Source of the DNA: a virus
Strand: one strand, 5' to 3'
Length of the DNA stretch: 64,000 bases
IMG/VR virus record: IMGVR_UViG_3300030380_006483
Shown: piece by piece, positions 12,145 to 56,334 of the stretch
How the letters are laid out: each line of letters starts with the position of its first letter
Position numbering within the stretch: the first letter of the stretch is position 1
Position numbers and translations under genes: made by a program
The notes under the pieces: model-generated
Seen by the model: the letters and a program-made list of their open reading frames with translations, nothing else
The model's database searches: none
What the model was told of the DNA's origin: nothing

Positions 12145-14448
12145 ATGGCAGGAATAAGTACCCAAGGAATTGCTAGTGGAAGTATAATATTTCCAGAACA
12201 TATATTAAGATCAATTGATGCTTTAAATGGTGAAGCAGGACCATTTGATTTTAAACTATCGGGATCTGTAACAGTATCAGGAAGCACAAAAATATCTTCA
12301 GGTAGTGTTATTGAAAATAATAATGCACCTACTGCTTTAATGTATAATACTGCATCGGGTGATATATTTTTTAGTACAGGAAGTTTAGGTGGTGGTGGTG
12401 GATCAGGTACTAGTGGTACTTCAGGTACTTCAGGTACAAGTGGATCATCTGGTTCAAGTGGTACAAGCGGTACAAATGGTAGCTCAGGATCAAGTGGATC
12501 ATCTGGTTCAAGTGGTACAAGCGGTACAAATGGTAGTTCAGGAACTTCAGGTGCAGATGGTAATTTATTTACAACTACATCTTCTACATCTACAGCTATA
12601 GGTACAGGGTCTAAAGGATTTACAGTTGCCGCAGGATTAGCCTTTATAGTAGGACAATCCCTTGTTATAGTAGATGCCTTAAATGCTGCCAATTTTATGA
12701 ATGGTAAAATTACTGCTTATAATAGTGGTACAGGAGCATTAACAGTAAATGTAACATCAGTTACAGGTAGTGGTACTAAATCATCATGGAATATAAGTTT
12801 AGAAGCAGCCCCTGGTACAAATGGTACTAGTGGATCTTCAGGTAGTTCTGGATCAAGTGGATCATCTGGTTCAAGTGGTACAAGTGGGTCTAATGGTACA
12901 GACGGTAGCTCAGGATCAAGTGGTTCAAGTGGTAGTTCAGGAACTTCCGGTGCGGATGGTGATGAATTTACAACAACTTCCTCAACTTCATTAGCAATTG
13001 GAACTGGTGCTAAAACATTAACAGTTGAAGCAGGTTTAGCATATGTAGTAGGTCAATCAGTAGCTATTATTTATGCTTCTGATGCAGATGATAAAATGAT
13101 TGGTAAAATTACTGGTTATAATTCAGGTAATGGAGCCTTATCCGTAACTGTATTATCATCAGCAGGTAGTGGAACCTATTCAAGTTGGAATGTAACTTTA
13201 GAATCAGTCCCGGGTACATCAGGTACTAGTGGTTCTAGTGGATCCTCTGGTACAAGTGGATCTTCAGGTTCCTCAGGTACTAGTGGCTCAAGTGGCTCAA
13301 GTGGAACTAGTGGTACAAATGGTACTTCAGGTTCTTCAGGATCAAGTGGATCATCAGGTACGAGTGGTACAAATGGAACTAGTGGTACAAATGGTACATC
13401 AGGTACAGGAGTAGGATTCCCATTTTCGGGAAGTGCACTACTATCAGGTAGTTTATTAATACATGGAACGGGAGCAGCTTTAAATGTACTTGGTGGAATA
13501 TCTGGATCTTCAATTTCAGGATCATTAACAGGATCATTATTAGGTACAGCTTCAATAGCTAATACAGCTACTACTGCATCTCATATAGTAACAGCTTCAT
13601 TTGCTAATACTACAACAAGTGCTTCTATAGCAACAACTGCGGGTACAGCTTCGGTAGCTGTAAGAGCAACTGCTTTAAGTGCACAAGCTACAGCTTCAAT
13701 AGCAGATAGAGCAACAACAGCATCATTTGCAAGTACGGGTGATGGAACATTTAGTGGATCATTTAGTGGTTCATTCCAAGGAGATGGATCGGACTTAGTA
13801 GGAGCAGGAATTAATACAACCTTTAATAATGAAGTAAGATATTTAGCATCTGATTTAGGAAGTAGTGGTGCGGATGGAAGTGTTGAATTATTATCATCAG
13901 CAACTATGTTTGGTGGATTAACCTGGACAAGAAGTAGTACTACTTTATCAATTAGTAGTTCTGCTCATGGACTATCTAATGGTGATTATGTAGTTATTCA
14001 AAATATGAACCAAAATTACTTATATGCTTCAGCTTCTGCAGTTGGGACAAATACATTCCAAATTACGGGAGTAGCAAATTCAGGAGGTACATCAGGGAAA
14101 AAAGGTGCCTATATACCTGCATTTAAAGTATCATCTTTTACACAAGCAGGTGCAACCATATCATCACCAAGTGCAGGTAATGTTCAATTAATTTCAGCAA
14201 AAGTTACCACGCCAACTAAAACAACAACAACATTTGATTTTACAATGCCGACCTCTAGAGAAAATGGAGCTGGTGCAAATGGATCTTTATATTCACAAAA
14301 CCCACCAATAATACAAGCTTGGGCTTTAAGTAATGGAAACCAAAACACCTCAGCAGTAATAACACTTAACACAAGTTCAAACTTTAATATATTCCAAGTA
14401 GGAGGATTAAGTGCTTTAATAAAATCAATGATTAAAGTAACATTCTAA
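12145..14448 (+). CDS. Virion fibre/structural protein with three collagen-like (G-[ST]-[SN])n blocks
   Basis: Gly every third residue at about 12388-12561, 12814-12960 and 13213-13410, separated by a duplicated ~85 aa domain (FTTTSSTS...IGTG...SSWN). N-terminus is paralogous to 18826. Confidence 0.75.
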   Translation: MAGISTQGIASGSIIFPEHILRSIDALNGEAGPFDFKLSGSVTVSGSTKISSGSVIENNNAPTALMYNTASGDIFFSTGSLGGGGGSGTSGTSGTSGTSGSSGSSGTSGTNGSSGSSGSSGSSGTSGTNGSSGTSGADGNLFTTTSSTSTAIGTGSKGFTVAAGLAFIVGQSLVIVDALNAANFMNGKITAYNSGTGALTVNVTSVTGSGTKSSWNISLEAAPGTNGTSGSSGSSGSSGSSGSSGTSGSNGTDGSSGSSGSSGSSGTSGADGDEFTTTSSTSLAIGTGAKTLTVEAGLAYVVGQSVAIIYASDADDKMIGKITGYNSGNGALSVTVLSSAGSGTYSSWNVTLESVPGTSGTSGSSGSSGTSGSSGSSGTSGSSGSSGTSGTNGTSGSSGSSGSSGTSGTNGTSGTNGTSGTGVGFPFSGSALLSGSLLIHGTGAALNVLGGISGSSISGSLTGSLLGTASIANTATTASHIVTASFANTTTSASIATTAGTASVAVRATALSAQATASIADRATTASFASTGDGTFSGSFSGSFQGDGSDLVGAGINTTFNNEVRYLASDLGSSGADGSVELLSSATMFGGLTWTRSSTTLSISSSAHGLSNGDYVVIQNMNQNYLYASASAVGTNTFQITGVANSGGTSGKKGAYIPAFKVSSFTQAGATISSPSAGNVQLISAKVTTPTKTTTTFDFTMPTSRENGAGANGSLYSQNPPIIQAWALSNGNQNTSAVITLNTSSNFNIFQVGGLSALIKSMIKVTF

Positions 14449-14457
14449 TAGCTTGTT

Positions 14458-16470
14458 ATGGCATATAGAGATCAAAGATTTATAGGTGTTATTAATGCCG
14501 ATAGTATTGTTGATAGTAACTTTATTATCGGAACTGGTAATTTTGCAGATGGATCCACCTTAATTGCTGATGTTAATATATCTTCAGGAGATGAAGATTT
14601 AATTAGACCTGGTCAAATTGTATTTTCAGTAGCAGGTGCATTGCCTGCAAATACAAAAGTATCATCTGTTAATGCCGATCGTACACAAATTACTTTAGAT
14701 AAAGCCGCTACATCTACCGCGGCGGGTGATACATTTGGTTTATCAACTCCTTCAGGATCTTACTTTTTTCAATCTGCTAGTTTTAATGATCCAAATAATA
14801 ATTTAACTGTAAATAATATTAGTGGTAGTGATTCGGGATCTAGTTTTGCTATAGTAGGTGTAGCAAAAAAGAGTAATGCTACCATAAAAAATAGATTCCA
14901 TCTTTATACAGTATCTGAAGTAGTTCAAAGAAACATAGGATCTGCTGAAATTTCATTTTTTGTAGAATGGGGAGAACAAGGTGAAGAATCGGGTTCAGGT
15001 GATGAATTACAAACTGCAGAAAAAGAAGTTGCAATTATAGATTTAACTGATACTGGTTCTATAGCTCCGGGATTCTCATTAGGGGTTGCTGGAATGGAAA
15101 GTTTAAAGGCCGGTTCCGAATATGCTGGTTATAATATAGCAATTAATCAATACTTATCTGACTTATCAAGTTCAGTAGCTTCATCATTAACTGGATCATT
15201 ATCAGGATCAGTTACCGGTTCTTTAATTGGAACTGCTACATCTGCATCAACAGCAGTATTAGCCCAAACTGCTTCAGTTGCTACTAGGGCAAATACTTTA
15301 GCTCCAACTGCAACAGCTTCACGAGCAGATAGTGCAACCACAGCATCATTCCCTGAACGAGGAGTAATAGGTGGTAGTGCTACTCAAAATATTATTACCC
15401 TTAATAGAGGAGATGGTACTACTATAACTTTAGAAACATCAGTTTCTGGTTCTGTAGAATCTGCCTCAATTGCAACTGTAGCTAGTACTGTTAGAAATGG
15501 AGGTAGTGGTTCATTTAGTGGTTCATTCCAAGGAGATGGTTCAAGTTTAACAGGATTAGTTACTGCCTCACATGCTTTAACCGCTGTATCTGCTTCATTT
15601 GCTACTTCAGCATCAGTAGAGATAATAAAAGAATTAAGTTCATCATTTGCTGATACAGCTTCTGTAGCACAAAGTGGTACAGGATCATTTAGTGGCTCAT
15701 TTACAGGTTCAGGTGACTTTGATGATGTTAGAGTTAAACAATACATTTATCATAAAGGTGATGAAAATACATTTATAAACTTTACTGATAATAGGATTAG
15801 ATTTAATGCTGGTGGTATTAACTTTATGAGTTTGGAAGATGATGGTAGTGCTCCTTTTCCTTTTGTAATTAATAATGGTGGTAATAGAATTAACTTTAGG
15901 GTCATGGATAGAAATTCAGACCTTCTTTTAAAAACTGATTCTGAAGCACTTAATGTTGGATTATATTATGCAGGTGGTAAAAAATTCGAAACAATATCAA
16001 AGGGTGTTAATGTAACAGGTAGTATCGATGTATCAGGTAGTATAGATGTAACAGGTAGTGTCTCCGCATCTGAAGATATAGTTGTTTCAGGAAATGTATT
16101 TGTAGATGGAACTTTAGATGCTGCAACTAAAAACTTTAGAATTGATCATCCAACCATGGAAGGTTATTATTTAATTCACTCATCATTAGAAGGACCAGAA
16201 AGAGGAATATATTATAGAGGTAAATTAAAAACAAATAATATTATATACTTACCGGATTATTGGAATGAATTAACAGATGAAACAGATATTACAGTTCAAC
16301 TTACACCTATAGGAAATGCCTGTCAACATTTTGTTAAATCTGTAACTAAAAAAGAAATTGAAGTAGGTTGTGATTGTGGAAAACCACATTGCTATTATAT
16401 AGTTCATGCTCAAAGATTTAATGAAGGTAGATTAGATATTTTAAAACCAAAAATTTCAAAAAGGTTGTAA
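14458..16470 (+). CDS. Fibre-like structural protein
   Basis: TASxA and SGSFSGSF repeats shared with neighbouring fibres; C-terminal KNFRIDHP...HSSLEGPE domain typical of phage fibre termini. Confidence 0.65.
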   Translation: MAYRDQRFIGVINADSIVDSNFIIGTGNFADGSTLIADVNISSGDEDLIRPGQIVFSVAGALPANTKVSSVNADRTQITLDKAATSTAAGDTFGLSTPSGSYFFQSASFNDPNNNLTVNNISGSDSGSSFAIVGVAKKSNATIKNRFHLYTVSEVVQRNIGSAEISFFVEWGEQGEESGSGDELQTAEKEVAIIDLTDTGSIAPGFSLGVAGMESLKAGSEYAGYNIAINQYLSDLSSSVASSLTGSLSGSVTGSLIGTATSASTAVLAQTASVATRANTLAPTATASRADSATTASFPERGVIGGSATQNIITLNRGDGTTITLETSVSGSVESASIATVASTVRNGGSGSFSGSFQGDGSSLTGLVTASHALTAVSASFATSASVEIIKELSSSFADTASVAQSGTGSFSGSFTGSGDFDDVRVKQYIYHKGDENTFINFTDNRIRFNAGGINFMSLEDDGSAPFPFVINNGGNRINFRVMDRNSDLLLKTDSEALNVGLYYAGGKKFETISKGVNVTGSIDVSGSIDVTGSVSASEDIVVSGNVFVDGTLDAATKNFRIDHPTMEGYYLIHSSLEGPERGIYYRGKLKTNNIIYLPDYWNELTDETDITVQLTPIGNACQHFVKSVTKKEIEVGCDCGKPHCYYIVHAQRFNEGRLDILKPKISKRL

Positions 16471-16501: not shown

Positions 16502-18787
16502 ATGAAAATTCAAGCCCACACAAGTTTTATTGGTACTACTGGGTATGCTAACCATGCTCAATCTTTTTTTACTGAATTAGATAAACTAACACCTATTAAG
16601 GTTAGAAATGCTACAGTAGGAAAATCATGGAACTGGCCTAATAATACCCCTCATGACAAAGAACCTTACATAACCCCTCAAATGAAAAAAATGCTTCATT
16701 TACAAACATTATTTGAAGCAGATAAAAGTAGAAATGATTATCCTATATACCATCATAAAGAAAATTTCCAATCTGATATAGATATAATTTTAGAGGAACA
16801 TGATCACCATTATTTTTATGATTCTTATAATGGTTATAAAATAGGATATAATGTTTGGGAATCAACTAAATATTCTAATCAATTTTTTAATCAGTTACTT
16901 ACCTTAGATGAATTATGGGTTCCTACTGAATGGCAAAAAGAAATATCCATCAAACAAGGATACCCAGAAAATAAAATATTTGTAATTCCAGAAGGAGTAG
17001 ATGGTAAAATATTTAAACCAAATCCAAAATTAAAAAAACCTAATAAATTTCAATTTATTATAGTAGGTAGGTGGGATTATAGAAAAGGTATAAAAGAAAG
17101 TATTGAAGGTTTTTTAAAAGCATTCCCCGATAATCAAGATGTTGAATTATTATTAAACGTAGAAAACCCATATCCTACAGATGGTATGAATTCAACAGAA
17201 GAACGTTTAAAACACTATAATTTAGAAGATAATAGAATAAAAATATTAAAATTTTTAAATAGAAAACAATATATTAAACTATTACAAAATGCTAATGTAT
17301 TAATTTCTTGTGCTAAAGCAGAAGGATGGAATTTACCTTTAATAGAATCATTAGCTTGTGGTACTCCTTCAATTTATACTAAATGTTCAGGGCAATTAGA
17401 ATTTACTAAAAGTAAAGGATTAGGAGTTGAAATATTAGGAGAAGAAAAAGCAGGAGAAAACATACCTGGTAATTTTTATACTCCTGATTTAAATGATTTA
17501 ATTAAAAAAATAAAAGATTCTTATAATAACTATAATATATGGAAAGAATGGCATTTAAATCGTTCTAAAGAAATAAGAGAAGAGTATTCATGGAAAAATC
17601 AAGCAATAAAAGCATATAATCGTTTACAACAAATAAAAATTACTCCTAAAATTAAAACACCTATATTAGATGTAAATTTTGTAGATGGTCCTTATGCTTG
17701 TTTAAGAAATTCTAATCAAGAATATTTAGTAGATTTTATAAATCAAGACACTAACCAAAGTGAATATTCAGTTAATTTAAAAAATGACCATTGGGGTAAA
17801 ACATTTCATAAATTTTTTATAAATTGGGATATACAAATAAAAGATAATTTTGGAGAAATAATTTATTCCCACAAATATAATGCATCTGGTAAAAGAGTCT
17901 ATATAGCTTTTGGTTCCAAAGCTTTAGGTGATACTTTAGCTTGGTTTCCTTATGCTTTAGAGTTTAAGAAAAAACACAATTGTCATGTAATTGTATCTAC
18001 CTTTTGGAATAAGTTTTTTAAAGAAAAATATCCTGAATTAGAATTTGTATCTCCCGGAGCTACTGTTCCTAATTTATATGCTATGTATGAAATAGGTTGG
18101 TATTATGATGATAATGATCAATTAGATAGGTTTAAACAACCATATGACCCTAAACAATTTACTTTACAACAAACAGCAACTAATATACTAGGATTAGAAT
18201 ATAAAGAAATTATACCTAAAATAAATTATGAAGTAAAGGATCGTCCTTTTAAAGAAAAATATATATGTATATCTCCACATGCTTCTGCAAGCGCTAAATA
18301 TTGGCACCATCCTACTGGGTGGCAAACTATTATTAATTATATTAATAATGTTTTAGGGTATAAAGTAGTAATGATTTCTAAAGAAAAATATAATGATAAT
18401 TGGGAAACTGATAAATTACCTTTACAAAAGAAATTTCAAAATATAATAGATGCTACAGGTGATCACCCTATAGAAGATATAATTAATATGTTACACCATT
18501 CAGAAATGTATATAGGTGTATCTAGTGGTTTAGCTTGGTTATCTTGGTCAATTAAAAATCCTGTAGTGTTAATATCTGGATTTAGTTCTGATTGGACTGA
18601 ATTTTCCTCAAATATTGAAAGAATTATTAATAAAAATGTATGCAATTCTTGTTTTAATAATTTTAAATTAGATGCAGGTGATTGGAATTGGTGTCCTGTC
18701 CACAAAGATACTCCAAGACAATTTGAATGCACTAAAAAAATATTACCTGAAACCGTAATAGAAGGTATTACTCGTAGACTTAGTTAA
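16502..18787 (+). CDS. Fusion of GT4-type glycosyltransferase and Aah/TibC-like autotransporter O-heptosyltransferase
   Basis: N-half has GRWDYRKG and AEGWNLPLIESLACGTP (GT-B/GT4). C-half has LGDTLAWFPY, YIGVSSGLAWLSW and the four-Cys motif CNSC...CPVH...RQFEC characteristic of TibC/Aah. Confidence 0.85.
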   Translation: MKIQAHTSFIGTTGYANHAQSFFTELDKLTPIKVRNATVGKSWNWPNNTPHDKEPYITPQMKKMLHLQTLFEADKSRNDYPIYHHKENFQSDIDIILEEHDHHYFYDSYNGYKIGYNVWESTKYSNQFFNQLLTLDELWVPTEWQKEISIKQGYPENKIFVIPEGVDGKIFKPNPKLKKPNKFQFIIVGRWDYRKGIKESIEGFLKAFPDNQDVELLLNVENPYPTDGMNSTEERLKHYNLEDNRIKILKFLNRKQYIKLLQNANVLISCAKAEGWNLPLIESLACGTPSIYTKCSGQLEFTKSKGLGVEILGEEKAGENIPGNFYTPDLNDLIKKIKDSYNNYNIWKEWHLNRSKEIREEYSWKNQAIKAYNRLQQIKITPKIKTPILDVNFVDGPYACLRNSNQEYLVDFINQDTNQSEYSVNLKNDHWGKTFHKFFINWDIQIKDNFGEIIYSHKYNASGKRVYIAFGSKALGDTLAWFPYALEFKKKHNCHVIVSTFWNKFFKEKYPELEFVSPGATVPNLYAMYEIGWYYDDNDQLDRFKQPYDPKQFTLQQTATNILGLEYKEIIPKINYEVKDRPFKEKYICISPHASASAKYWHHPTGWQTIINYINNVLGYKVVMISKEKYNDNWETDKLPLQKKFQNIIDATGDHPIEDIINMLHHSEMYIGVSSGLAWLSWSIKNPVVLISGFSSDWTEFSSNIERIINKNVCNSCFNNFKLDAGDWNWCPVHKDTPRQFECTKKILPETVIEGITRRLS

Positions 18788-18825: not shown

Positions 18826-21072
18826 ATGGCTTCAACAATAAGTACATCAGGTATAGCGAGTGGTAGTGTCATTAAGGCCCAACATGCCTTAAGAATTATT
18901 AACTCTTTAAATGGAACGGCAAATAATGATATCTATGTAACTGGTTCTGTAGGAATTACAGGTAGTTTATCAATAAAAAGTGGTAGTTTAGCGGAAACTG
19001 GTTCCGGTTTTGATTTTTTATTAGCATATGATACAGGTAGTGGAGATGTAAAATTTACAAGAAGAAATTCAACTTCTGGTACATCAGGTACTTCAGGTAG
19101 TTCAGGTTCAAGTGGTACAAGTGGTTCATCTGGTTCAAGTGGAACAAGTGGTACAAATGGTTCATCTGGTTCCTCCGGTTCAAGTGGAACAAGTGGTACC
19201 AATGGTACTAATGGTTCATCAGGTACATCTGGTTCATCCGGTAGTTCAGGAACAAGTGGAGAAAAAGGAGGAGTAGAATATAACTTTGATAACAATACTA
19301 GTGATGCAGATCCAGGAAATGGAGAAATAAAATATAATAATGCATCTATTGCTTCTGTAACTTTTATTTATATAGATAATTTAGATCAAAGAGGGGCAGA
19401 TCAAACTGCATGGTATGCTACTTGGGATGATTCAACAAATAGTGCTGACCGTGGACAAATAATTGTAACCAGTAGGGATACAGGAACAGTTGTAAATTCA
19501 TTTAAAATAACAGGTGCAGTAACAGCAGCTACTGGGTATTATAAAATACCTGTAGCTTATATAACGGGTACTATACCATCTAATGGTAATAAACTATCAG
19601 TCCAATTTTCAAGATCTGGTAATGCAGGTACTTCTGGTACAAGCGGTACTAATGGTTCATCAGGTACTTCAGGTGGATTAAATATATCTAATAATGTTAC
19701 AGGATCTTTACTATTAGCTAGTGGTTCAACTAGTGATCTTAATGGTGCCGCAGGGTTAAAATATACAGGTAGTATTTTCCAAATTACAGGATCAGAAACT
19801 AGAATTTCAAGTTCAGTTAGTATAACTGGAAGTAATGCTCCCGCATTAAGAGTTAGTGGCAGTACAACTTTAACAGGATCAGTTACTATTAGTGGTAGTG
19901 TTTCAGCTTCTAATGTTTATTCTATTGGTGATGCTTTTTTGGGAACTGGAACTGGTAATGATGAGGTAAAATTAGTTCATGCTGGAGATACTGATACTTA
20001 TTTACTATTTGATACAAACCATGTAAATTTAGTTGCAGGTGATAAGTCAGTCATTAAATATGATCAGACACTATCAGATAAAAAAATAATGATTAACAAC
20101 ACCAATGCTGACCTTGACACGCAAATAATGGCGGACAATGGTAATGTAATTATTCATGTTGATGCTGGAGATAATAGAGTAGGAATAAATAAAACAACCC
20201 CAAATAACGCTTTAGACGTAAAAGGAGGTACAAGTATAACAGGTTCAACTACAATTACAGGATCATTACACGTAAGTAGTAGTAATATTTTTATCCCCGC
20301 ATTTAGAGTTACTGGTAGTACAACATTAACAGGTAGTTTATTTGTTAGTGGTGGAATGAAAGTTTCTGGAAGTAACGTTCATAGTGGAAGTACAATACAA
20401 CAAGGTAGTATAAGACTAAAAGGTAGCGCCCATATTTCAGGATCCGAGGCTATATCGGGCTCATTATTAATAACAGGTAGTAATGCCCCAGCATTAAGAA
20501 TTAGTGGTAGTACAGCATTAACAGGTAGTTTACTACAAAGTGGTAGTACACAAATTACAGGTTCTACTCTCTTATCAGGTTCATTACTTTTAACAGGTAG
20601 TTCTACCTTAGCATTAAGGATAACTGGTAGTACAGCATTAACGGGAAGTTTATTACAAAGTGGTAGTACTGTAACTACAGGTAGTGTAGAAATTTCTGGT
20701 AGTTTAGGAGTAGGAACAGCTGCATCAGGTGTTATAGGTGCAATTTTAGCTGCAAACGATGTTGTAGCATTTGCTTCTTCAGATGAAAGATTAAAGGAAA
20801 ATATAACATTAATAGAAAATCCATTAGATAAAATTATTAAAATATCTGGATATGAATATGATTGGGTCCCAATGGAAGGAGTACATGTACATTCAGGACA
20901 CGATATAGGAGTAATAGCACAAGAAGTAGAAAAAGTATTTCCAGAAATTGTAGCAGACAGAGATAATGGATATAAAGCAGTAAAATATGAAAAATTAGTA
21001 TCCGTGTTAATAGAAGGTATAAAGGAATTAAAACAAGAAGTAGATTTACTTAAGAAAAAAATAAATGGCTAA
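18826..21072 (+). CDS. Fibre protein with collagen-like blocks, [ST]GS hexapeptide repeats and C-terminal S74 intramolecular chaperone
   Basis: GTS/GSS triplets at 19078-19260 and 19627-19677; TGSLLQSGST-type repeats; SDERLKENI...DIGVIAQEVEKV...VKYEKL. Confidence 0.85.
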   Translation: MASTISTSGIASGSVIKAQHALRIINSLNGTANNDIYVTGSVGITGSLSIKSGSLAETGSGFDFLLAYDTGSGDVKFTRRNSTSGTSGTSGSSGSSGTSGSSGSSGTSGTNGSSGSSGSSGTSGTNGTNGSSGTSGSSGSSGTSGEKGGVEYNFDNNTSDADPGNGEIKYNNASIASVTFIYIDNLDQRGADQTAWYATWDDSTNSADRGQIIVTSRDTGTVVNSFKITGAVTAATGYYKIPVAYITGTIPSNGNKLSVQFSRSGNAGTSGTSGTNGSSGTSGGLNISNNVTGSLLLASGSTSDLNGAAGLKYTGSIFQITGSETRISSSVSITGSNAPALRVSGSTTLTGSVTISGSVSASNVYSIGDAFLGTGTGNDEVKLVHAGDTDTYLLFDTNHVNLVAGDKSVIKYDQTLSDKKIMINNTNADLDTQIMADNGNVIIHVDAGDNRVGINKTTPNNALDVKGGTSITGSTTITGSLHVSSSNIFIPAFRVTGSTTLTGSLFVSGGMKVSGSNVHSGSTIQQGSIRLKGSAHISGSEAISGSLLITGSNAPALRISGSTALTGSLLQSGSTQITGSTLLSGSLLLTGSSTLALRITGSTALTGSLLQSGSTVTTGSVEISGSLGVGTAASGVIGAILAANDVVAFASSDERLKENITLIENPLDKIIKISGYEYDWVPMEGVHVHSGHDIGVIAQEVEKVFPEIVADRDNGYKAVKYEKLVSVLIEGIKELKQEVDLLKKKING

Positions 21073-21442
21073 AAATGTAAGAATCGTTCCTGCATCAGGG
21101 TCAATATTCTTCACTGGTGATGGATTTGATGTTACTGGTTCTATTAAATTACAAACTGTAGGTAGTACTGAAAATGTACAATTTATAGATGGTACTTCAA
21201 ATGAATCAATAATTTTAATTCATAAAGCATCTAGGAGAGTTGGAATAGGTTTAGTATCCGCTTCTGCTAAATTAGAAGTATCTTCCTCTAATACTGAAGA
21301 TGCTTTAAAAGTTGGAACCCCAGATGGTGATTTAAAAGTAAATAATAAAGGAATTTTACAATTATCGGAATACCAAGGAAATGCTACCGCTGTTGAGGGT
21401 GGTATTTTATATAGTGGAAGTAATCTATTCATCGGAGATTAA
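21065..21442 (+). CDS. Small fibre-associated protein
   Basis: 125 aa ORF with RRVGIG and SAKLEV beta-repeat seen in fibres; overlaps the previous stop. Confidence 0.5.
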   Translation: MAKNVRIVPASGSIFFTGDGFDVTGSIKLQTVGSTENVQFIDGTSNESIILIHKASRRVGIGLVSASAKLEVSSSNTEDALKVGTPDGDLKVNNKGILQLSEYQGNATAVEGGILYSGSNLFIGD

Positions 21443-21471: not shown

Positions 21472-22434
21472 ATGCCAAGTTGGAAAAAAGTCATAGTCTC
21501 CGGATCCCATGCAGAACTAAGTTCAGTTACAGGTTCATTTACAGGTTCATTTAAAGGAGTAGTTGTAGGTACTATTGCCTCTTCTTCTACTGCATTATTA
21601 GCTGGAACAGCTTCTGTTGCTACTAGAGCAAATTCTTTAGCTCCAACTGCAACTGCTTCATTCGCAGACAGTGCTACAACAGCTTCTCATGCATTAAATG
21701 TACCTAATACTGCATCACATGCACTAACTACAGTATCAGCTTCAATAGCCGATGAAGCTTCAACATTAAGTTCAACTGCAACGGCTTCATTTGCTGATAT
21801 ATCCACATTAGCTAGAGCAGGTTCAGGATCATTTAGTGGTTCATTTCAAGGTGATGGTTCAAATTTATCAGGAATTGCTACTACTTTAACTGTAGATGGT
21901 GATTCAGGAGCACAAGATGTAGATTTACAAACTGATGATTTACAAATATTAGGTACTGCAAATGAAATAGTAACTGCCGTTACAAAAGCTGGTAACGACG
22001 TAAGAGCAACTATTAGTTTACCTGATGATGTTACTATTGGACAAGATTTAACAGTTACTAGAGATGCTACTATTACTAGGAATTTAACTGTTCAAGGTAC
22101 AGCTTCTTTTCAACATACAACTGATTTAGATGTTGCAGATAGATTCATTAGATTAGCATCAGGATCAAATGCTGCAGGGGATGGTGGTATAGCTGTTATT
22201 CAATCTGGATCCAAAAACTCCGAAGCATTAGCTTATGATTCAGCCGTAACTAGATGGGGTTTTACTGGTTCTTTTGATCCATCTCAAAATACTATAGTTC
22301 CAGAAGCATTTGTTGCAGCGGTAATAGAAGGTGGGAGTGGAGATAATGATCCTACTGATACAATTGCTAAATATGCTAAAAAAGGAAATATATTTGTAGC
22401 AGATAACGGAGAAATATATGTTTATTCTTCATAA
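21472..22434 (+). CDS. Fibre-like structural protein (MPSWKK family 1)
   Basis: N-terminus MPSWKKVIVSGS is paralogous to 22773; contains the TASVATRANSLAPTATAS repeat. Confidence 0.65.
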   Translation: MPSWKKVIVSGSHAELSSVTGSFTGSFKGVVVGTIASSSTALLAGTASVATRANSLAPTATASFADSATTASHALNVPNTASHALTTVSASIADEASTLSSTATASFADISTLARAGSGSFSGSFQGDGSNLSGIATTLTVDGDSGAQDVDLQTDDLQILGTANEIVTAVTKAGNDVRATISLPDDVTIGQDLTVTRDATITRNLTVQGTASFQHTTDLDVADRFIRLASGSNAAGDGGIAVIQSGSKNSEALAYDSAVTRWGFTGSFDPSQNTIVPEAFVAAVIEGGSGDNDPTDTIAKYAKKGNIFVADNGEIYVYSS

Positions 22435-22449
22435 TAAATTTTAATAGTT

Positions 22450-22668
22450 TTGGGTTTTATTGCAAGCAAAATAGAAGTAAAAGAGGGAAAAAGTAAGGTA
22501 ATTGATAATGCAGAATTACCTCAAGATTTGCTTTTAGATAAGGCAGAATTACAAGTTCTTTTAAAAATGATTAAAAATTCTTCATTTGAAGGAAAAGATA
22601 TTGAACTGGTTTTTAAAATGACCTGGAAATTACAAGAAGCTTATTTATCTCTACAAGAGAATGAATAA
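22450..22668 (+). CDS. Small hypothetical protein (TTG start)
   Basis: 72 aa ORF filling the gap between fibre genes. Confidence 0.5.
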   Translation: MGFIASKIEVKEGKSKVIDNAELPQDLLLDKAELQVLLKMIKNSSFEGKDIELVFKMTWKLQEAYLSLQENE

Positions 22669-22713
22669 ATATATTTTACTTCTCCTCCATAAATTTAAAA
22701 TATTTATACTTGA

Positions 22714-22766
22714 TATTATCGGCCCTTAAGGGAAGTGGGCAGGCAATCCTGTAACCAACCATAATA
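22714..22766 (+). ncRNA. Candidate structured 5' UTR RNA (three-way junction)
   Basis: GC-rich island: UAUUAU(C)GG/CCAUAAUA outer stem, CCC-UUAA-GGG hairpin, and GG/CC plus GCAGG/CCUGU hairpin with an AA bulge. Lies between ATATTTAT (22700) and the ATG (22773). Confidence 0.5.
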
Positions 22767-22772
22767 AATTAT

Positions 22773-23399
22773 ATGCCTAGTTGGAAAAAACTTATTACTA
22801 GTGGCTCTAATGCTACTCTATCCTCACTATCAGTTGATAACCAAATAACGGGTTCATCTTATACAGGTTCTTTTACTGGTTCTTATCAAGGTGATGGTTC
22901 GGATTTAACAGGTATAAATCCTTTCCCATTTACTGGATCCGCTTCAGTCCTAGGAGATTTAAGATTAGACTCTCCATCAAATGATTACGTAGATGATGCT
23001 TATGTAAATGATTATTTAGTTGGTGGAACTGCTTTAATAGTTGAGGATAATGCTATATTTAGTGGTTCTGTAACTGTATTAAATTTATCAGGTTCAGTTT
23101 CAGGTTCATTCCAAGGACAAGTAAATACAGAATTATTAAGAATTAGTTCTCCAAATGATTATGTTGCTGATTATGTTGAAGATTATATAGCGGGTATAGC
23201 ATTAATTACAACAGGGTCAGCTATCATAGAAGGTGGGGCAGATATAATAGGACCTTTAAATCATTCACAAGGAGCAGTTGTATTAACTAGAGTATCTGAA
23301 AGTCTTAACTTTACAAATGATACAGATGCAGCTACTGGTGGAGTTCCTTTAGGAGGATTATACAGAAATGGAAACGATATTAAAATTAGAATAACTTAA
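22773..23399 (+). CDS. Fibre-like structural protein (MPSWKK family 2)
   Basis: MPSWKKLITSGS N-terminus; duplicated LRxxSPxNDYV..DY segment; C-terminal GGVPLGGLYRNG. Confidence 0.6.
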   Translation: MPSWKKLITSGSNATLSSLSVDNQITGSSYTGSFTGSYQGDGSDLTGINPFPFTGSASVLGDLRLDSPSNDYVDDAYVNDYLVGGTALIVEDNAIFSGSVTVLNLSGSVSGSFQGQVNTELLRISSPNDYVADYVEDYIAGIALITTGSAIIEGGADIIGPLNHSQGAVVLTRVSESLNFTNDTDAATGGVPLGGLYRNGNDIKIRIT

Positions 23400-23427
23400 C
23401 AATATTTATAACATATATTAATTAACT

Positions 23428-25746
23428 ATGGCAATTACTTTAAGAACAGGTTTAGGTAGAAAGCTTACCATCGCAGAGATGGATGAAAACTTTACTTTTT
23501 TAAGTAGCTCCTATGTAGTAAACAGTGTGACGGCTTCAATGACGGCTGGTTCAGCTTCAGTTGCTACAAGAGCTAATGGTTTAGCTCCAACGGTAACAGC
23601 TTCATTTGCTGATACAACTACATCGGCTTCTATATCTACCACTGCTCAAACATCATCCGTTGCTACAAGAGCTAATACTTTAGCTCCAACTGCAACAGCT
23701 ACATCTGCATCAACAGCAGTATTAGCCCAAACTGCTTCCGTTGCTACTAGGGCAAATGGTTTAGCTCCTACAGTTACAGCAACATCAGCCTCTACTGCTA
23801 TTGCAGCTCAAACAGCCTCAGTGGCTACAAGAGCAAATGGCTTAGCACCAACAGTTACAGCAACTTCTGCTTCAACTGCTATTGCAGCTCAAACAGCCTC
23901 AGTCGCTACAAGAGCAAATGCTTTAGCCCCTACAGTAACTGCCACTTCAGCTTCCGTAGCTGCAAGAGCAACTACTTTAAGTGCACAAGCTACAGCTTCA
24001 TTTGCAGACGTAGCAGGCACGGTACATGATGGTAACATAACTGCTACAAAAATTGCAGCAGATGCCGTTATTACAACTAAAATATTAAATAGTAATGTAA
24101 CAAATGCTAAATTAGCAAATGATAGTGTTACTATAGGTTCAACAGAAGTAGATTTAGGAGCTACAGCAGCTTCATTAACAGGGTTGACAAGCATTTCTGC
24201 TCAAACTGGTAGTTTTGTATTACAAGTATTTGAATCCGCTTCTACTATAATAACATCTGGATCAAACATTCTTGGTGATAAAGCAACTGATATTCAACAA
24301 ATTACAGGTAGTTTACTACAAACAGGTAGTATGACTGTTATAGGTAATATATCAGCTAGTGTAGGAGGATTTAGTGGTTCATTCCAAGGAGATGGTACAT
24401 TATTAACAGGTGTAATAGCTTCAGGTTCGATTCAATCAGCCTCTGTTGCTGCAAGAGCAACTACTTTAAGCCCAGCGGCTACGGCTGCATCATCATCAAC
24501 GGCAATATTAGCCCAAACAGCTTCTGTTGCTACAAGAGCAAATGCTTTAGCCCCTACAGTAACTGCCACTTCAGCCTCTGTTGCTGCAAGAGCAACTACT
24601 TTAAGTGCTGCGGCAACAGCAAGTTTTGCAGATAAAGCAAACGTCGCTGTAACATCAAATGTAATTCCTGTAACAGTAGTTAATGATGGAGGAAACAAAT
24701 ATGCATTTAATGGAGTAACTGCTCCAAAAATATCACTTAATAGAGGAGAATTATACAGATTTGATCTATCAGATTCAAGTAATAATGGTCACCCACTTAG
24801 ATTTAGATTACTTAATGATACCTCATACACACCAGGAGTAAATGCAGTAGGTACACCAGGTCAAGCAGGTGCATATGTGGATTTTGATGTTAATTTTTCA
24901 ACATCAGCATCTTTAAAATATTACTGTACATCCCATGGAAATGGAATGGGTAATACAGCTCAAGTACCAGATTTTCTTAATAATAGTGGTTCATTTAGTG
25001 GTTCTTATCAAGGTGATGGTTCTAATATAACTGCAGTATCAGCAATTTCATCATCTACAGCAGTATTAGCTCAAACAGCCTCTGTTGCTACTAGAGCTAA
25101 TGGTTTAGCACCAACAGTTACAGCATCATTTGCAGATTTAGCAAGTAATGTACGTAACCTTTCCATTTCAGGATCTGGAGCTATATCAGGTTCATTATTA
25201 GTAACAGGAAGTTCTGCTCTAGCAATAAGAGTTAGTGGTAGTACAGCTTTAACAGGTAGTATTTTCCAAACAGGATCATTTAACGTCTCGGGTAGTAGTA
25301 TGTTATCTGGATCTGTAAGTATTACTGGTAGCACAAATATAATTGGTGCCGTAAGTTCAAGTGATACAGGTAGGTTTAAGAGTTTAGGTATTAATGTTGC
25401 CCCTTCAGGTGTAGCCGGAGCTATATTAGCTACTAATGATGTTGTTGCATTTGCCTCTTCAGATGAAAGATTAAAGGAAAATCTAGAACCAATTGGAAGT
25501 GCAGTTGAAAAAGTAGAACAAATAACAGGATATACTTATAATTGGATTCCTATGGAAGATATTCACGTATATGGTGATATGAAAGATATAGGTGTAATAG
25601 CACAAGAAGTAGAAAAAGTATTACCTGAAATAGTATCAGATAGAGAAAATGGATATAAAGCAATTAAATATGATAAATTGACAGCTGTATTAATCCAAGC
25701 AGTAAAAGAATTATCTGATAGAGTTAAAACTTTAGAAAATAAATAA
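23428..25746 (+). CDS. Fibre protein with TASVATRANxLAPT repeats, cupredoxin-like insert and C-terminal S74 chaperone
   Basis: About 8 copies of the Ala/Thr/Ser repeat; GHPLRF...YYCTSHGNGM; SDERLKENL...DIGVIAQEVEKVLPE. Confidence 0.85.
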   Translation: MAITLRTGLGRKLTIAEMDENFTFLSSSYVVNSVTASMTAGSASVATRANGLAPTVTASFADTTTSASISTTAQTSSVATRANTLAPTATATSASTAVLAQTASVATRANGLAPTVTATSASTAIAAQTASVATRANGLAPTVTATSASTAIAAQTASVATRANALAPTVTATSASVAARATTLSAQATASFADVAGTVHDGNITATKIAADAVITTKILNSNVTNAKLANDSVTIGSTEVDLGATAASLTGLTSISAQTGSFVLQVFESASTIITSGSNILGDKATDIQQITGSLLQTGSMTVIGNISASVGGFSGSFQGDGTLLTGVIASGSIQSASVAARATTLSPAATAASSSTAILAQTASVATRANALAPTVTATSASVAARATTLSAAATASFADKANVAVTSNVIPVTVVNDGGNKYAFNGVTAPKISLNRGELYRFDLSDSSNNGHPLRFRLLNDTSYTPGVNAVGTPGQAGAYVDFDVNFSTSASLKYYCTSHGNGMGNTAQVPDFLNNSGSFSGSYQGDGSNITAVSAISSSTAVLAQTASVATRANGLAPTVTASFADLASNVRNLSISGSGAISGSLLVTGSSALAIRVSGSTALTGSIFQTGSFNVSGSSMLSGSVSITGSTNIIGAVSSSDTGRFKSLGINVAPSGVAGAILATNDVVAFASSDERLKENLEPIGSAVEKVEQITGYTYNWIPMEDIHVYGDMKDIGVIAQEVEKVLPEIVSDRENGYKAIKYDKLTAVLIQAVKELSDRVKTLENK

Positions 25747-52678: not shown

Positions 52679-52866
52679 TGGCAGAAATAATTAGACATAT
52701 TAGTGGAATGTGTGGTGAACATTTTCACCCAAACATTTGGCACCTTTTATTAGGTGGGGTTGGAATAACAACTATTTTATCGTATATTAGTTTATACTTA
52801 AAATGTAAATTTAAAGCGTTTGCCTATACGCTTAATAATACCTGGCAAAAATTTAAATTAAAATAG
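52678..52866 (+). CDS. Small protein with one hydrophobic segment
   Basis: 62 aa with CGEHFHP motif; coupled to the upstream gene. Confidence 0.45.
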   Translation: MAEIIRHISGMCGEHFHPNIWHLLLGGVGITTILSYISLYLKCKFKAFAYTLNNTWQKFKLK

Positions 52867-52868
52867 AA

Positions 52869-53663: not shown

Positions 53664-53699
53664 TAATATTTATGGGTTATAAAATTAGAAAGTAAAAAA

Positions 53700-53843: not shown

Positions 53844-53847
53844 AAAT

Positions 53848-54498: not shown

Positions 54499-56334
54499 AT
54501 GGCTACATTAACCAATAGGACTATAAGATCGACTTACGATCAACTTTTACAACTAGAAGATAATTTAATTCAAGACGGTTTTGGAACTCATTCTTTAAGT
54601 GGTTCCTATAATCTTACTGGAAGTCAATTTATATCTGGTAATCTTCATATTAATGGTACAGCTTCTATTGATTATTTAGTTTCTTCTTATGAATCATCAT
54701 CTATTATTTTTAGTTCAGGTTCAACAAAATTCGGAGATGACACTTCAGATACCCATGAATTTACGGGAAGTGTTCTAATAAGTGGTTCCGCTTTTAGTAC
54801 AAATTGGAGTGGATCCTTTACTGGTTCATTTATTGGTTTAGCAGATTCTTCATCTAATGCGACAAGAGCAGTTACTGCTTCACAAGCTGATAGAGCTACA
54901 ACATCTTCCCTTGCTAATAAGGCCTCTAATCTACAAATAGTTGGAGAAGATTCAAGTGCAGCCACTCATTATGTTCTTTTTGGCCCTAACTCATCAGGAG
55001 AATCTGATGTTAATGCAGATGGTAATTTAAATTATGTACCCAATACTGAAACTTTAACAGTTACTAAAGTAATAGGTAATTTAGAAGGAACAGCATCAAA
55101 TGCTGATACAGCATCTGTATTATTAGGTTCTGTAATTTCGGCTTCTCATTGTGAGACCGCTTCACTAGCAATTTCAACATCAGTAGTTAATGTTACTTCA
55201 ACTTCATTTGCAAACAGTGGTGATGGTCCATTTACTGGTTCATTTTCATCCAGTTTACCTTCATTATTATCCGGTTCATTTACAGGTTCCTTTACTGGCT
55301 CATTAGTTGGTAATACATCAGTTAGTAACATACTACAAACTGGTACTACTCAAACAACGGGATCTAATACTATTTCTGGGTCATTAACAATAACAGGAAG
55401 TTCAACTTTAGCAGTAAGAATAACTGGTAGTACAGCTTTAACAGGAAGTCTATTACAAAGTGGCAGTATTGTATCAACTGGAAGTTTATTACAAAAAGGT
55501 AGTACACAAATTTCAGGTTCTACTCTTTTATCAGGTTCATTACTTTTAACAGGTAGTAGTACCCTGGCATTAAGAGTTAGCGGTAGTACAGCTTTAACGG
55601 GTAGCTTACTACATAGTGGTAGTACAGCCCTAACGGGGAGTTTATTACAAAGTGGTAGTATTGCATTAACTGGAAGTTTATTACAGATTGGTACTACACA
55701 AACTACTGGATCTAATATTATATCTGGATCATTATTAATAACAGGTAGTTCTGCAATAGGACTTAGAATGTCTGGAAGTACGGCATTAACGGGTAGTGTT
55801 TTCCAAACAGGATCACTTAATGTAACTGGTAGTACTAATTTATCTGGATCTTTAGTAATAGTAGGAAATATTAATACGGGACAGGGTGTTACAGAAGTAT
55901 ATTTACAAAACCAAAATTTAAGAACAGCTGATTCAGTACAATTTAATGGACTAGGAGTTGGAACAGCACCATCAGGAGTAGCAGGAGCTATTTTAGCTAC
56001 TAATGATGTTGTAGCATTTGCTTCTTCAGATGAAAGATTAAAGGAAAATCTAGAACCAATTGGAAGTGCTACAGAAAAAATAGGACAATTAACTGGTTAT
56101 ACATTTGATTGGATTCCAATGGAAGGAATTCATGTACATTCAGGACATGATGTTGGAATTATTGCTCAAGAAGTAGAAAAGGTACTTCCTGAAGTTGTAG
56201 AAACAAGAAAAAATGGTTATAAAGCTGTTAAATATGAAAAACTTACAGCATTACTTATACAAGCCCTTAACGAACAACAAAAAGAAATTGATAACCTTAA
56301 AAGTAAGGTTGGATCGTTAGAAAATCGTTTGTAA
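54499..56334 (+). CDS. Orphan fibre protein with [ST]GS repeats and S74 chaperone
   Basis: Repeats and S74 domain nearly identical in places to 18826 and 23428; ATATTTAT at 54470. Confidence 0.85.
   Translation: MATLTNRTIRSTYDQLLQLEDNLIQDGFGTHSLSGSYNLTGSQFISGNLHINGTASIDYLVSSYESSSIIFSSGSTKFGDDTSDTHEFTGSVLISGSAFSTNWSGSFTGSFIGLADSSSNATRAVTASQADRATTSSLANKASNLQIVGEDSSAATHYVLFGPNSSGESDVNADGNLNYVPNTETLTVTKVIGNLEGTASNADTASVLLGSVISASHCETASLAISTSVVNVTSTSFANSGDGPFTGSFSSSLPSLLSGSFTGSFTGSLVGNTSVSNILQTGTTQTTGSNTISGSLTITGSSTLAVRITGSTALTGSLLQSGSIVSTGSLLQKGSTQISGSTLLSGSLLLTGSSTLALRVSGSTALTGSLLHSGSTALTGSLLQSGSIALTGSLLQIGTTQTTGSNIISGSLLITGSSAIGLRMSGSTALTGSVFQTGSLNVTGSTNLSGSLVIVGNINTGQGVTEVYLQNQNLRTADSVQFNGLGVGTAPSGVAGAILATNDVVAFASSDERLKENLEPIGSATEKIGQLTGYTFDWIPMEGIHVHSGHDVGIIAQEVEKVLPEVVETRKNGYKAVKYEKLTALLIQALNEQQKEIDNLKSKVGSLENRL

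What the first reader, a model, noticed from the sequence alone, without database searches (positions are those of the whole stretch)
16502..18787. Phage-encoded GT4 + TibC/Aah-type O-heptosyltransferase embedded among Ser/Thr-rich fibre genes
Seen: the C-half keeps LGDTLAWFPY (region of the catalytic Asp) and the four Fe-binding Cys (CNSC...CPVH...FEC), and is fused to a GT4 domain. It sits among at least six fibre genes dominated by SGS/TGS/TAS repeats. Established: Aah/TibC transfer heptose from ADP-heptose onto Ser residues of repetitive autotransporter beta-helices. Inference: a virion O-glycosylation system in which the TibC-like domain primes Ser/Thr repeats and GT4 extends the glycan, affecting stability, host range or shielding. 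The donor sugar may not be heptose, since no heptose synthesis genes are in the window.
Basis: partly seen in the sequence, partly recalled or inferred. Interest (0 to 1): 0.8.

Follow-up and report, generated by a model that had tools for sequence, protein, structure and literature searches.

The report
Phage fibre-glycosylating TibC-like fusion enzyme
An uncultured marine T4-like phage carries, between its tail-fibre genes, one gene that fuses a true relative of the bacterial adhesin-glycosylating enzyme TibC to a second sugar transferase; it most likely sugar-coats the phage's own serine/threonine-rich collagen-like fibres, though nobody has yet seen the sugar.

Summary
ORF 16502-18787 (+, 761 aa) is an intact fusion of a GT4 glycosyltransferase with a TibC/Aah-family (BAHT) domain. 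The BAHT half scores 312 bits on TIGR04414 (cut-off 200), and TibC is the best fold match (TM 0.81-0.84). The catalytic Asp, the phosphate Lys, the sugar-contacting Trp and all four iron Cys are kept. TibC's adenine-contacting Arg286 is Ile here, and the dodecamer "thumb" tip is not kept.

The gene lies among seven Ser/Thr-rich fibre genes of an Immutovirus-like phage. General Ser/Thr richness is not specific, because a BAHT-less relative has it too. The specific partner is the proline-free Gly-Ser/Thr-Ser collagen-like tract, found in fibre genes on either side of the enzyme.

- Viral records picked only by such tracts hold a BAHT gene in 12 of 44 cases. A proline-type collagen control gave 0 of 47.
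- BAHT is fused or adjacent to a GT4 in 77 of 81 phage loci.
- There are no heptose-pathway genes. A complete relative instead encodes GDP/dTDP-deoxysugar synthesis, so the donor may not be ADP-heptose.

The best reading is cytoplasmic O-glycosylation of the phage's own fibres. This is inferred and untested. The scan has noted the same kind of system on other DNA. No held paper describes it.

The parts
16502..18787 (+). GT4 + BAHT (TibC/Aah-family) fusion glycosyltransferase, 761 aa
   Evidence: AlphaFold model with pLDDT 87.9. Foldseek top hit is TibC, E 8e-32.
16502..17656 (+). GT4 domain (about residues 1-385), with the EX7E motif at E274-E282
   Evidence: PF00534 and PF13692 above cut-off, phrog_2170. 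E274 and E282 are nearly invariant in 38 homologues. Fold matches to PglA, MshA and PimA.
17663..18787 (+). BAHT domain (about residues 388-761). It holds a beta-barrel (388-458), a GT-B core with D477, S595, K599 and W679, and an iron finger C714/C717/C731/C743. Ile660 stands in place of TibC Arg286.
   Evidence: TIGR04414 312 bits. Residue mapping. TibC residue functions from PMC4358343.
12145..14448 (+). Fibre protein (767 aa, 35% Ser+Thr) with three proline-free Gly-Ser/Thr-Ser collagen-like tracts (nt 12388-12558, 12814-12957, 13213-13410). Candidate acceptor.
   Evidence: Pfam Collagen 67.7 bits, PHROG tail-fibre families. Tract coordinates, and zero Pro in the tracts.
14458..16470 (+). 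Fibre-like protein (670 aa, 22% Ser+Thr) directly upstream of the enzyme gene
   Evidence: The C-terminus is 46% identical to the immuto 'putative tail fiber-like protein'. phrog_17490.
18826..21072 (+). Fibre protein (748 aa) directly downstream, with collagen-like Gly-Ser/Thr-Ser tracts (nt 19078-19257, 19627-19671), TGS-type beta repeats and a C-terminal S74 chaperone domain. Candidate acceptor.
   Evidence: Pfam Collagen and Peptidase_S74, many PHROG tail-fibre families.
21065..21442 (+). Conserved 125-aa ORF. It follows the downstream fibre gene in nearly every locus of this lineage.
   Evidence: A 124-125 aa ORF sits at position +2 in most loci of this lineage (L002-L007, L009, L010, L023) but is absent from the most divergent, L011 and L012. 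Function unknown.
21472..25746 (+). Three more Ser/Thr-rich fibre genes (21472-22434, 22773-23399, 23428-25746). The last carries an S74 chaperone domain.
54499..56334 (+). Seventh Ser/Thr-rich fibre gene (611 aa, 29% Ser+Thr), with the same S74-type C-terminus

Best explanation
The gene encodes a soluble, cytoplasmic, two-headed protein O-glycosyltransferase of a lytic marine T4-like phage. The TibC-like (BAHT) half probably attaches a first sugar to Ser (perhaps also Thr) hydroxyls of the phage's own fibre proteins while these are made and assembled in the cytoplasm. The fused GT4 half probably adds a second sugar.

The likeliest acceptors are the proline-free Gly-Ser/Thr-Ser collagen-like stalks of two nearby fibres, 12145-14448 upstream and 18826-21072 directly downstream. 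The TGS-type beta repeats of the other fibres are a second candidate.

The glycan would stabilise or stiffen a triple helix that has no proline or hydroxyproline, and would shield the fibres from proteases. The donor is a nucleotide-diphospho-sugar of unknown identity, ADP-heptose or a different one.

Shown here: family membership, intact catalytic and iron-binding residues, the fold, gene context, the pairing with GT4, and the statistical link to Gly-Ser/Thr-Ser tracts. Inferred: the acceptor, the order of the two steps, the sugar and the benefit.
For: Enzyme:
- TIGR04414 scores 312 bits against a cut-off of 200. TibC matches at E 1e-51 by sequence and TM 0.81-0.84 by fold.
- D477, K599, W679, F741 and the four Cys are invariant in 80 viral homologues. 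PMC4358343 shows these residues are needed for TibC activity.
- The GT4 EX7E motif is conserved.
- BAHTs are cytoplasmic enzymes that act on repetitive Ser-rich proteins (PMC4358343). Virions assemble in the cytoplasm.

Context:
- The gene lies between fibre genes here and in all 13 relatives of this lineage. These include 58%-identical relatives that lie beside 1831-1868 aa fibres with 44-48% Ser+Thr.
- In a distant phage group the order is giant fibre, fibre chaperone, GT4+methyltransferase, BAHT.
- BAHT is fused or adjacent to a GT4 in 77 of 81 loci.

Association:
- Records chosen only by a (Gly-Ser/Thr-Ser)x8 coding pattern hold BAHT in 12 of 44 cases. A proline-type collagen control gave 0 of 47, Fisher p = 7e-5.
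- BAHT lies in the same locus in 8 of 107 cases against 0 of 129, p = 0.0015.
- Among capsid-anchored relatives, all 3 records with BAHT have such tracts, and 2 complete relatives without BAHT showed none within 10 kb downstream of the capsid gene.
- A complete 183-kb phage whose BAHT is not beside a fibre has a giant tract gene elsewhere in its genome.
- Close relatives are almost absent from cellular genomes: 6 hits, all on MAG contigs.

Precedent: glycosylated Thr stabilises Riftia cuticle collagen (PMC11766948).
Against: - No glycan, glycoprotein or enzyme activity has been observed for any phage BAHT.
- About 70% of records with Gly-Ser/Thr-Ser tracts show no BAHT, though most of those records are fragments.
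- The largest phage BAHT group has no such tract within 10 kb, nor in a 58%-complete record.
- The association tests are not corrected for relatedness, and the control set leans towards smaller phages.
- TibC Arg286, whose Ala mutant loses activity, is Ile here.
- The thumb tip that drives dodecamer assembly is not kept, and the thumb is not predicted as a hairpin.
- TibC and Aah modified Ser but not Thr.
- A relative has four other glycosyltransferases beside its sugar island. The glycan machinery may therefore serve another target.
Confidence: 0.55

Rival explanations
1. The enzyme glycosylates other virion proteins, such as capsid, decoration, sheath or baseplate proteins, rather than the fibres. 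Its position in the fibre block only reflects late co-expression.
For: In mycobacteriophages the glycans sit on capsid and tail-tube subunits (Freeman 2023, as quoted in PMC12619734). The largest phage BAHT group lacks collagen-like tracts nearby and lies next to terminase and portal genes.
Against: The statistical link is to Gly-Ser/Thr-Ser tracts. Capsid and sheath proteins here have ordinary composition, 15-17% Ser+Thr. Known BAHT acceptors are long repetitive Ser-rich proteins.
Confidence: 0.13
2. The enzyme modifies host components during infection: envelope proteins or adhesins, LPS core or a surface polysaccharide. The purpose would be to block superinfection or remodel the cell.
For: Bacterial BAHTs act on surface adhesins. 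GT9 relatives act on LPS core (weak RfaQ and heptosyltransferase hits). A relative carries a large sugar island with four more glycosyltransferases far from the fibre genes.
Against: The enzyme has no membrane segment or signal sequence, so it would be confined to the cytoplasm. The gene is embedded in the late structural block of a lytic T4-like phage in every relative. No autotransporter partner is present. Close relatives are essentially confined to viral contigs.
Confidence: 0.12
3. One or both domains glycosylate phage DNA, as a hypermodification against restriction.
For: Phage glycosyltransferases often modify DNA (PMC12619734). PF20706, 'GT4 in conflict systems', matches at 34 bits. The same window carries a 7-deazaguanine (preQ0) gene set.
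Against: The BAHT domain keeps the protein-binding iron finger and beta-barrel of a protein glycosyltransferase. No DNA-modifying member of this family is known. The gene lies among fibre genes, not replication genes.
Confidence: 0.05
4. The BAHT domain is a degenerate or non-catalytic module, for example a fibre-binding chaperone, and only the GT4 half is active.
For: The Arg286 equivalent is lost and the thumb tip is altered.
Against: The catalytic Asp, the Lys, the Trp and all four Cys are invariant across 80 viral and 154 representative sequences. This is the pattern of purifying selection on an active site.
Confidence: 0.04

Closest known systems
TibC-TibA and Aah-AIDA-I of E. coli: bacterial autotransporter heptosyltransferases (BAHT; TIGR04414; PDB 4RAP, 4RB4; PMC4358343)
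   Same: The C-half has the same family and fold: beta-barrel, GT-B core and 1Fe iron finger. The catalytic Asp, the phosphate-binding Lys and Thr/Ser, the sugar-contacting Trp and the four Cys are all conserved. Both are cytoplasmic. Both genes lie beside a gene for a long, repetitive, Ser-rich surface filament.
   Different: Identity to bacterial members is only 31-39%. The enzyme is fused to a GT4 domain. Arg286, the adenine contact, is Ile. The thumb tip F265/V266 is W634/E635, with a 5-residue insertion. The neighbours are phage fibres, not autotransporters. There are no heptose genes. A glycan longer than one sugar is implied.
Microcystis phage Mel-JY01 protein WWT39291.1 (annotated 'methyltransferase FkbM'; PP395634.1)
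   Same: It is the only cultured-phage homologue found among 50,697 phage records: 43.6% identity over 96% of the query. The order GT4 then BAHT is the same. It lies two genes downstream of a 1016-aa protein with 12 Gly-Ser/Thr-Ser tracts. Its T4-like capsid is related (50.8% identity).
   Different: It is 1226 aa, with an FkbM methyltransferase domain inserted between the two transferases. A cytidylyltransferase-like gene follows, which the window lacks.
Mycobacteriophage virion glycosylation (Freeman et al. 2023, Cell Host Microbe; quoted in PMC12619734; the paper itself is not held)
   Same: Phage-encoded glycosyltransferases decorate the phage's own structural proteins in the cytoplasm.
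   Different: The targets are the C-termini of capsid and tail-tube subunits. As far as the held text says, the enzymes are not of the BAHT family. The hosts are Actinobacteria.
Glycosylated collagens without hydroxyproline: Riftia cuticle collagen (Mann et al. 1996, via PMC11766948) and Bacillus BclA (own knowledge)
   Same: Gly-X-Thr/Ser triplets whose O-glycans stabilise or decorate a triple helix.
   Different: The enzymes are unrelated. Here the tracts have no proline at all and belong to a virus.

Membership tests
BAHT (TibC/Aah, TIGR04414) | Sequence score above the curated family cut-off | tested here: met
   312.4 bits against a cut-off of 200, covering model positions 26-372 of 374.
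BAHT (TibC/Aah, TIGR04414) | Catalytic base Asp110, plus the beta-phosphate contacts Thr226 and Lys230 | tested here: met
   D477, S595 (conservative) and K599. The Asp and Lys are invariant in 80 viral homologues.
BAHT (TibC/Aah, TIGR04414) | Sugar O4 contact Trp305 | tested here: met
   W679, invariant in all 238 aligned domains.
BAHT (TibC/Aah, TIGR04414) | Adenine N1 contact Arg286, the stated basis of ADP-sugar specificity | tested here: not met
   I660 here. The 80 viral sequences have V54, T11, I10, R4 and A1; four bacterial Aah-type enzymes all have R. The sister lineage keeps R.
BAHT (TibC/Aah, TIGR04414) | 1Fe-0S iron finger with four Cys (339, 342, 358, 370) | tested here: met
   C714, C717, C731 and C743 are all present and invariant in the viral set. 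Metal binding itself was not tested.
BAHT (TibC/Aah, TIGR04414) | N-terminal flattened beta-barrel plus a GT-B catalytic domain | tested here: met
   The model has seven strands at residues 388-458. Foldseek TM (normalised to the target) is 0.81-0.84 over 380-400 columns of TibC.
BAHT (TibC/Aah, TIGR04414) | Beta-hairpin thumb with a hydrophobic tip (F265, V266), and dodecamer assembly | tested here: inconclusive
   The tip is W634/E635, followed by a 5-residue insertion. The region is not a hairpin in the model, with pLDDT about 76. Most other viral members have Y-M at the tip. The oligomeric state cannot be tested here.
BAHT (TibC/Aah, TIGR04414) | Transfers heptose from ADP-heptose to Ser | not testable with these tools
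   No GmhA (SIS_2) or PfkB kinase in a complete relative. The only small nucleotidyltransferase there is generic.
BAHT (TibC/Aah, TIGR04414) | Adjacent AIDA-I/TibA-type autotransporter substrate gene | tested here: not met
   Bacterial examples have AIDA-I directly downstream. Here the neighbours are phage fibres with collagen and S74 domains.
GT4 retaining glycosyltransferases (PF00534) | Pfam score above cut-off, GT-B fold and the EX7E motif | tested here: met
   51.7 bits against 26.4. E274-x7-E282 is nearly invariant. Fold matches to PglA, MshA and PimA at E about 1e-12.

The most novel reading that the evidence does not exclude
A widespread and undescribed kind of virion glycosylation in aquatic phages. 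TibC-like enzymes paired with GT4 partners would build short O-glycans on proline-free Gly-Ser/Thr-Ser collagen-like fibre stalks. The glycan would take the place of hydroxyproline in holding the triple helix together. In this lineage the donor would have moved from ADP-heptose to a phage-made GDP- or dTDP-deoxysugar; that is consistent with the Arg286 to Ile change and with the sugar island in the complete relative.
Probability: 0.3. Interest if true: 0.8.

Novelty: new variant of a known kind. Interest (0 to 1): 0.62.

Why it matters
Protein glycosylation of phage particles has been shown experimentally only for a few actinobacteriophages. If TibC-like enzymes coat the fibres of abundant marine and freshwater phages, fibre chemistry is not what the genes alone predict. 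That affects host recognition, particle stability and decay in the sea.

The case would also widen the BAHT family from a virulence-linked adhesin modifier to a general tool for decorating repetitive filaments. It would give a natural example of a glycan-stabilised collagen that has no proline.

The hypothesis can be tested directly: one relative, Microcystis phage Mel-JY01, is in culture, and the enzyme and fibre fragments can be co-expressed in E. coli.

Tried and rejected
- **The look-up of encoding contigs:** Contexts therefore came from IMG/VR loci instead.
- **Window's own genome:** no whole genome is held.
- **Heptose pathway:** SIS_2 (GmhA) and PfkB are absent from the complete 166-kb relative. 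The best rfaE_dom_II hit is 40 bits against a cut-off of 181.
- **Cytidylyltransferase-like genes:** those next to BAHT in other phage groups, and the small ones in the relative, could not be assigned to a substrate. They have no homologue in the window.
- **Generic Ser/Thr richness as the partner feature:** rejected, because BAHT-less immuto fibres reach 34% Ser+Thr.
- **Arg286 loss as a signature of all phage BAHTs:** rejected. The position varies (R, T, V, I, L), and the sister lineage of the window's clade keeps Arg.
- **Home-made GT4 HMM:** too insensitive for the distant group, so BLAST with that group's own GT4 protein was used instead.
- **Cellular genomes:** the scan gave only 6 MAG contigs and no isolate.
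- **Carbamoyltransferase cluster as glycan tailoring:** considered, but it lies inside a preQ0 (7-deazaguanine) gene set and more likely concerns DNA.
- **Literature:** searches for phage plus TibC or autotransporter heptosyltransferase found nothing relevant.
Full report
**1. The observation**

The ORF at 16502-18787 (+) is intact: 761 aa, ATG start.

Its N-half is a GT4-type glycosyltransferase.
- PF00534 scores 51.7 bits against a cut-off of 26.4. PF13692 and PF20706 also match, and phrog_2170 covers residues 7-376.
- An EX7E motif lies at E274-E282. Both Glu are nearly invariant in 38 homologues.

Its C-half is a member of the TibC/Aah family of bacterial autotransporter heptosyltransferases (BAHT).
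- TIGR04414 scores 312.4 bits against a curated cut-off of 200 and covers almost the whole model.
- TibC structures 4RAP/4RB4 match at E 1e-51.
- An AlphaFold model built on a 38-sequence alignment has mean pLDDT 87.9.
- Foldseek ranks TibC first, with E 8e-32 and target-normalised TM 0.81-0.84 over 380-400 columns. That span includes the N-terminal beta-barrel, modelled at residues 388-458. The N-half matches retaining GT4 enzymes such as PglA, MshA and PimA.

**2. Key residues**

The roles of TibC residues come from PMC4358343. The table maps them to the phage protein.

| TibC residue | Role in TibC | Here |
|---|---|---|
| Asp110 | catalytic base | D477 |
| Thr226 | beta-phosphate contact | S595 |
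| Lys230 | beta-phosphate contact | K599 |
| Trp305 | sugar O4 contact | W679 |
| Cys339, 342, 358, 370 | iron finger | C714, C717, C731, C743 |
| Phe368 | hydrophobic cluster with the thumb tip | F741 |
| Pro300 | D,D/L,D-heptose selectivity | S674, as in Aah |
| Arg286 | adenine N1 contact | I660 |
| Phe265, Val266 | thumb tip, dodecamer contact | W634, E635 |

Two features are not kept.
- Arg286 hydrogen-bonds adenine N1, and the authors call that contact incompatible with guanine. Its Ala mutant abolished or largely diminished activity. Here the residue is Ile660.
- The thumb tip that holds the dodecamer together is W634/E635, followed by a 5-residue insertion. The model shows no hairpin there.

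Across 80 viral homologues the Asp, Lys, Trp, Phe and four Cys are invariant. The Arg286 position reads V54, T11, I10, R4 and A1, whereas four bacterial Aah-type enzymes taken from plasmids next to AIDA-I genes all have Arg. A tree shows that the sister lineage of the window's clade still has Arg. The loss is therefore lineage-specific, not a mark of all phage enzymes.

**3. The phage and the neighbourhood**

The window is a late-gene block plus a replication block of a T4-like phage with about 30% G+C.
- Its gp23-type capsid protein is 57.6% identical to Flavobacterium phage immuto and 50.8% identical to Microcystis phage Mel-JY01.
- Portal, protease, sheath, tube and hub are collinear with immuto.
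- Homologues of the enzyme come from marine metagenomes, on contigs up to 178 kb.

Seven ORFs have 21-35% Ser+Thr, and most match tail-fibre families. Two carry Pfam Collagen and two carry the S74 chaperone domain.

Only two fibre genes hold proline-free Gly-Ser/Thr-Ser collagen-like tracts. 12145-14448, one gene upstream of the enzyme gene, has 171 residues in three tracts. 18826-21072, directly downstream, has 75 residues in two tracts. Neither has any Pro in these tracts.

**4. Relatives**

The BAHT domain has 4129 hits among proteins of 418-1332 aa and 2904 among shorter ones. It matches 1513 clusters at 50% identity, many of them multidomain. At least 286 IMG/VR contigs carry it.

Among 50,697 phage records only Mel-JY01 and three uncultured huge phages have it. 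Among 185,579 species genomes only six MAG contigs do. This clade is therefore essentially viral and uncultured.

In the 81 loci studied, BAHT is fused to a GT4 in 26. In all but 4 of the others a GT4-type gene, confirmed by Pfam in one representative (L057), lies next to it, which makes 77 of 81. Two of the four exceptions lack upstream sequence.

- **The window's lineage** (58-97% identity) always has the fusion between fibre genes. Distant members lie beside 1831-1868 aa fibres with 44-48% Ser+Thr.
- **A large second group** has a stand-alone enzyme of about 385 aa. Its gene order is giant fibre (2311 aa), fibre assembly chaperone, GT4 plus TylF-like methyltransferase, BAHT, cytidylyltransferase-like protein, terminase, portal.
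- **Mel-JY01** joins GT4, an FkbM methyltransferase and BAHT in one 1226-aa protein. It lies two genes after a 1016-aa protein with 12 Gly-Ser/Thr-Ser tracts.

**5. What is the acceptor?**

Generic Ser/Thr richness does not discriminate. Immuto has no BAHT, yet its fibres reach 34% Ser+Thr. It has no Gly-Ser/Thr-Ser tracts.

I tested that idea here in four ways.

(a) *Capsid-anchored relatives.* BAHT occurs in 3 of 34 records. All three have such tracts close by. Two complete relatives without BAHT showed none within 10 kb downstream of the capsid gene. Three to four fragmentary records have giant tract-bearing fibres but no BAHT in the sequence available.

(b) *Reciprocal test.* Viral records were chosen only by the DNA pattern (GGN WSN WSN)x8. 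They hold a TIGR04414 match in 12 of 44 cases, 10 of them above the cut-off. The BAHT-bearing ORFs range from 113 to 1379 aa, which suggests several lineages. Records chosen by a proline-type collagen pattern hold none in 47. Fisher p = 6.7e-5.

(c) *Adjacency.* BAHT lies in the same locus of about 9 kb in 8 of 107 tract loci, against 0 of 129 control loci. p = 0.0015.

(d) *BAHT records without an adjacent fibre.* Of four such records, a complete 183-kb phage has a giant tract gene about 30-50 kb away, and another has one at its contig end. Two have none.

Caveats apply to all four tests. The records are not phylogenetically independent. The control set leans towards smaller phages. Most tract-bearing records show no BAHT, though most are fragments. 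The second-largest phage group has no such tract.

**6. The donor sugar**

No heptose-pathway gene is in the window ORFs that were scanned. The complete 166-kb relative, whose enzyme is 80% identical, lacks GmhA-type SIS and PfkB kinase genes.

That relative does carry a nucleotide-sugar island of about 17 kb:
- a GDP-mannose 4,6-dehydratase (391 bits);
- a GDP-fucose-synthase-like reductase;
- an RfbH-like 3-dehydratase;
- a dTDP-glucose-4,6-dehydratase-like enzyme;
- a methyltransferase;
- a phosphomutase-nucleotidylyltransferase fusion.

Two GT4 and two GT2 genes flank the island. I could not read that stretch.

Together with Ile at the adenine-contact position, this makes a donor other than ADP-heptose at least as likely as heptose. 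That is an inference.

**7. Mechanism proposed**

The enzyme is soluble and acts in the cytoplasm, where BAHTs work and where fibres fold. The BAHT half primes Ser (perhaps also Thr) of the fibre stalks. The GT4 half extends the glycan.

Relatives that insert a sugar-type O-methyltransferase between the two halves imply a glycan of more than one sugar, which differs from the single heptoses of AIDA-I and TibA.

A triple helix without proline or hydroxyproline is expected to be weak. Glycosylated Thr is what stabilises Riftia cuticle collagen (PMC11766948). Stabilisation plus protease shielding is therefore the likeliest benefit.

I put 0.55 on "glycosylates the phage's own fibres". The rivals are other virion proteins (0.13), host components (0.12), DNA (0.05) and a non-catalytic BAHT domain (0.04).

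**8. Novelty**

No held paper links BAHT enzymes to phages. Experimentally shown phage virion glycosylation is quoted only for mycobacteriophage capsid and tail-tube proteins.

The enzyme family is known. What is new is the fusion, the viral host, the fibre context and the altered donor pocket. I therefore class it as a new variant of a known kind.

This scan has noted similar systems on many other genomes. That neither raises nor lowers the score.

Noticed in passing
window 51460-63937: A 7-deazaguanine (preQ0) gene set is interleaved with a phosphoribosyltransferase and four NodU/CmcH-type carbamoyltransferase paralogues. The preQ0 genes are QueD-like PTPS (51460-51924), QueC (52869-53663), a radical-SAM QueE-like gene (57526-58299) and GTP cyclohydrolase I (58424-59116). 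The phosphoribosyltransferase is at 59116-59553. The carbamoyltransferases are at 56345-57454, 59543-60607, 60997-62736 (the only full-length one) and 62741-63937. This is probably a DNA hypermodification pathway rather than glycan tailoring.
   Followed up: partly
window 42264-42836, 50001-50564, 53928-54446: Three 2OG-Fe(II) oxygenase paralogues (PF13759). The collagen-like tracts contain no Pro or Lys, so these enzymes are unlikely to hydroxylate them. Their targets are unknown.
   Followed up: no
window 21065-21442: A 124-125 aa ORF follows the fibre gene downstream of the enzyme in most loci of this lineage. It matches no family and may be a fibre assembly factor.
   Followed up: no
L425 (G001:C1:29500-48500), a complete 166-kb relative: A nucleotide-sugar island with a Gmd, an Fcl-like reductase, an RfbH-like 3-dehydratase, an RmlB-like dehydratase, a methyltransferase and a beta-phosphoglucomutase/nucleotidylyltransferase fusion. 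Two GT4 and two GT2 genes flank it. The island lies about 85-100 kb from the fibre-embedded GT4+BAHT gene.
   Followed up: partly
L057 1-16240 (IMG/VR contig of the stand-alone BAHT group): A conserved module: giant fibre, fibre chaperone, GT4+TylF-like methyltransferase, BAHT, a 131-aa ORF, a 792-aa protein (cytidylyltransferase-like plus DUF5661), terminase, portal. The nucleotidyltransferase recurs 2-5 genes after BAHT in 49 loci and in Mel-JY01. Its substrate could not be assigned.
   Followed up: partly
L057 2-6937: The 2311-aa giant fibre has a weak Hint/intein-splicing-like match (PF14890, residues 1935-2058, below cut-off) and a CBM_5_12-like stretch.
   Followed up: no
L008 6848-9160: In one IMG/VR relative the fusion gene is split into ORFs of 487 and 234 aa. 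This is a frameshift or an assembly error; it is not seen in identical-context neighbours.
   Followed up: no
L171 5620-7077 (Pandoraea plasmid): A bacterial BAHT homologue of 485 aa with no adjacent autotransporter. An FkbM methyltransferase gene lies about 5 kb upstream. It is the closest plasmid hit to the phage enzyme, at 38.8% identity.
   Followed up: no
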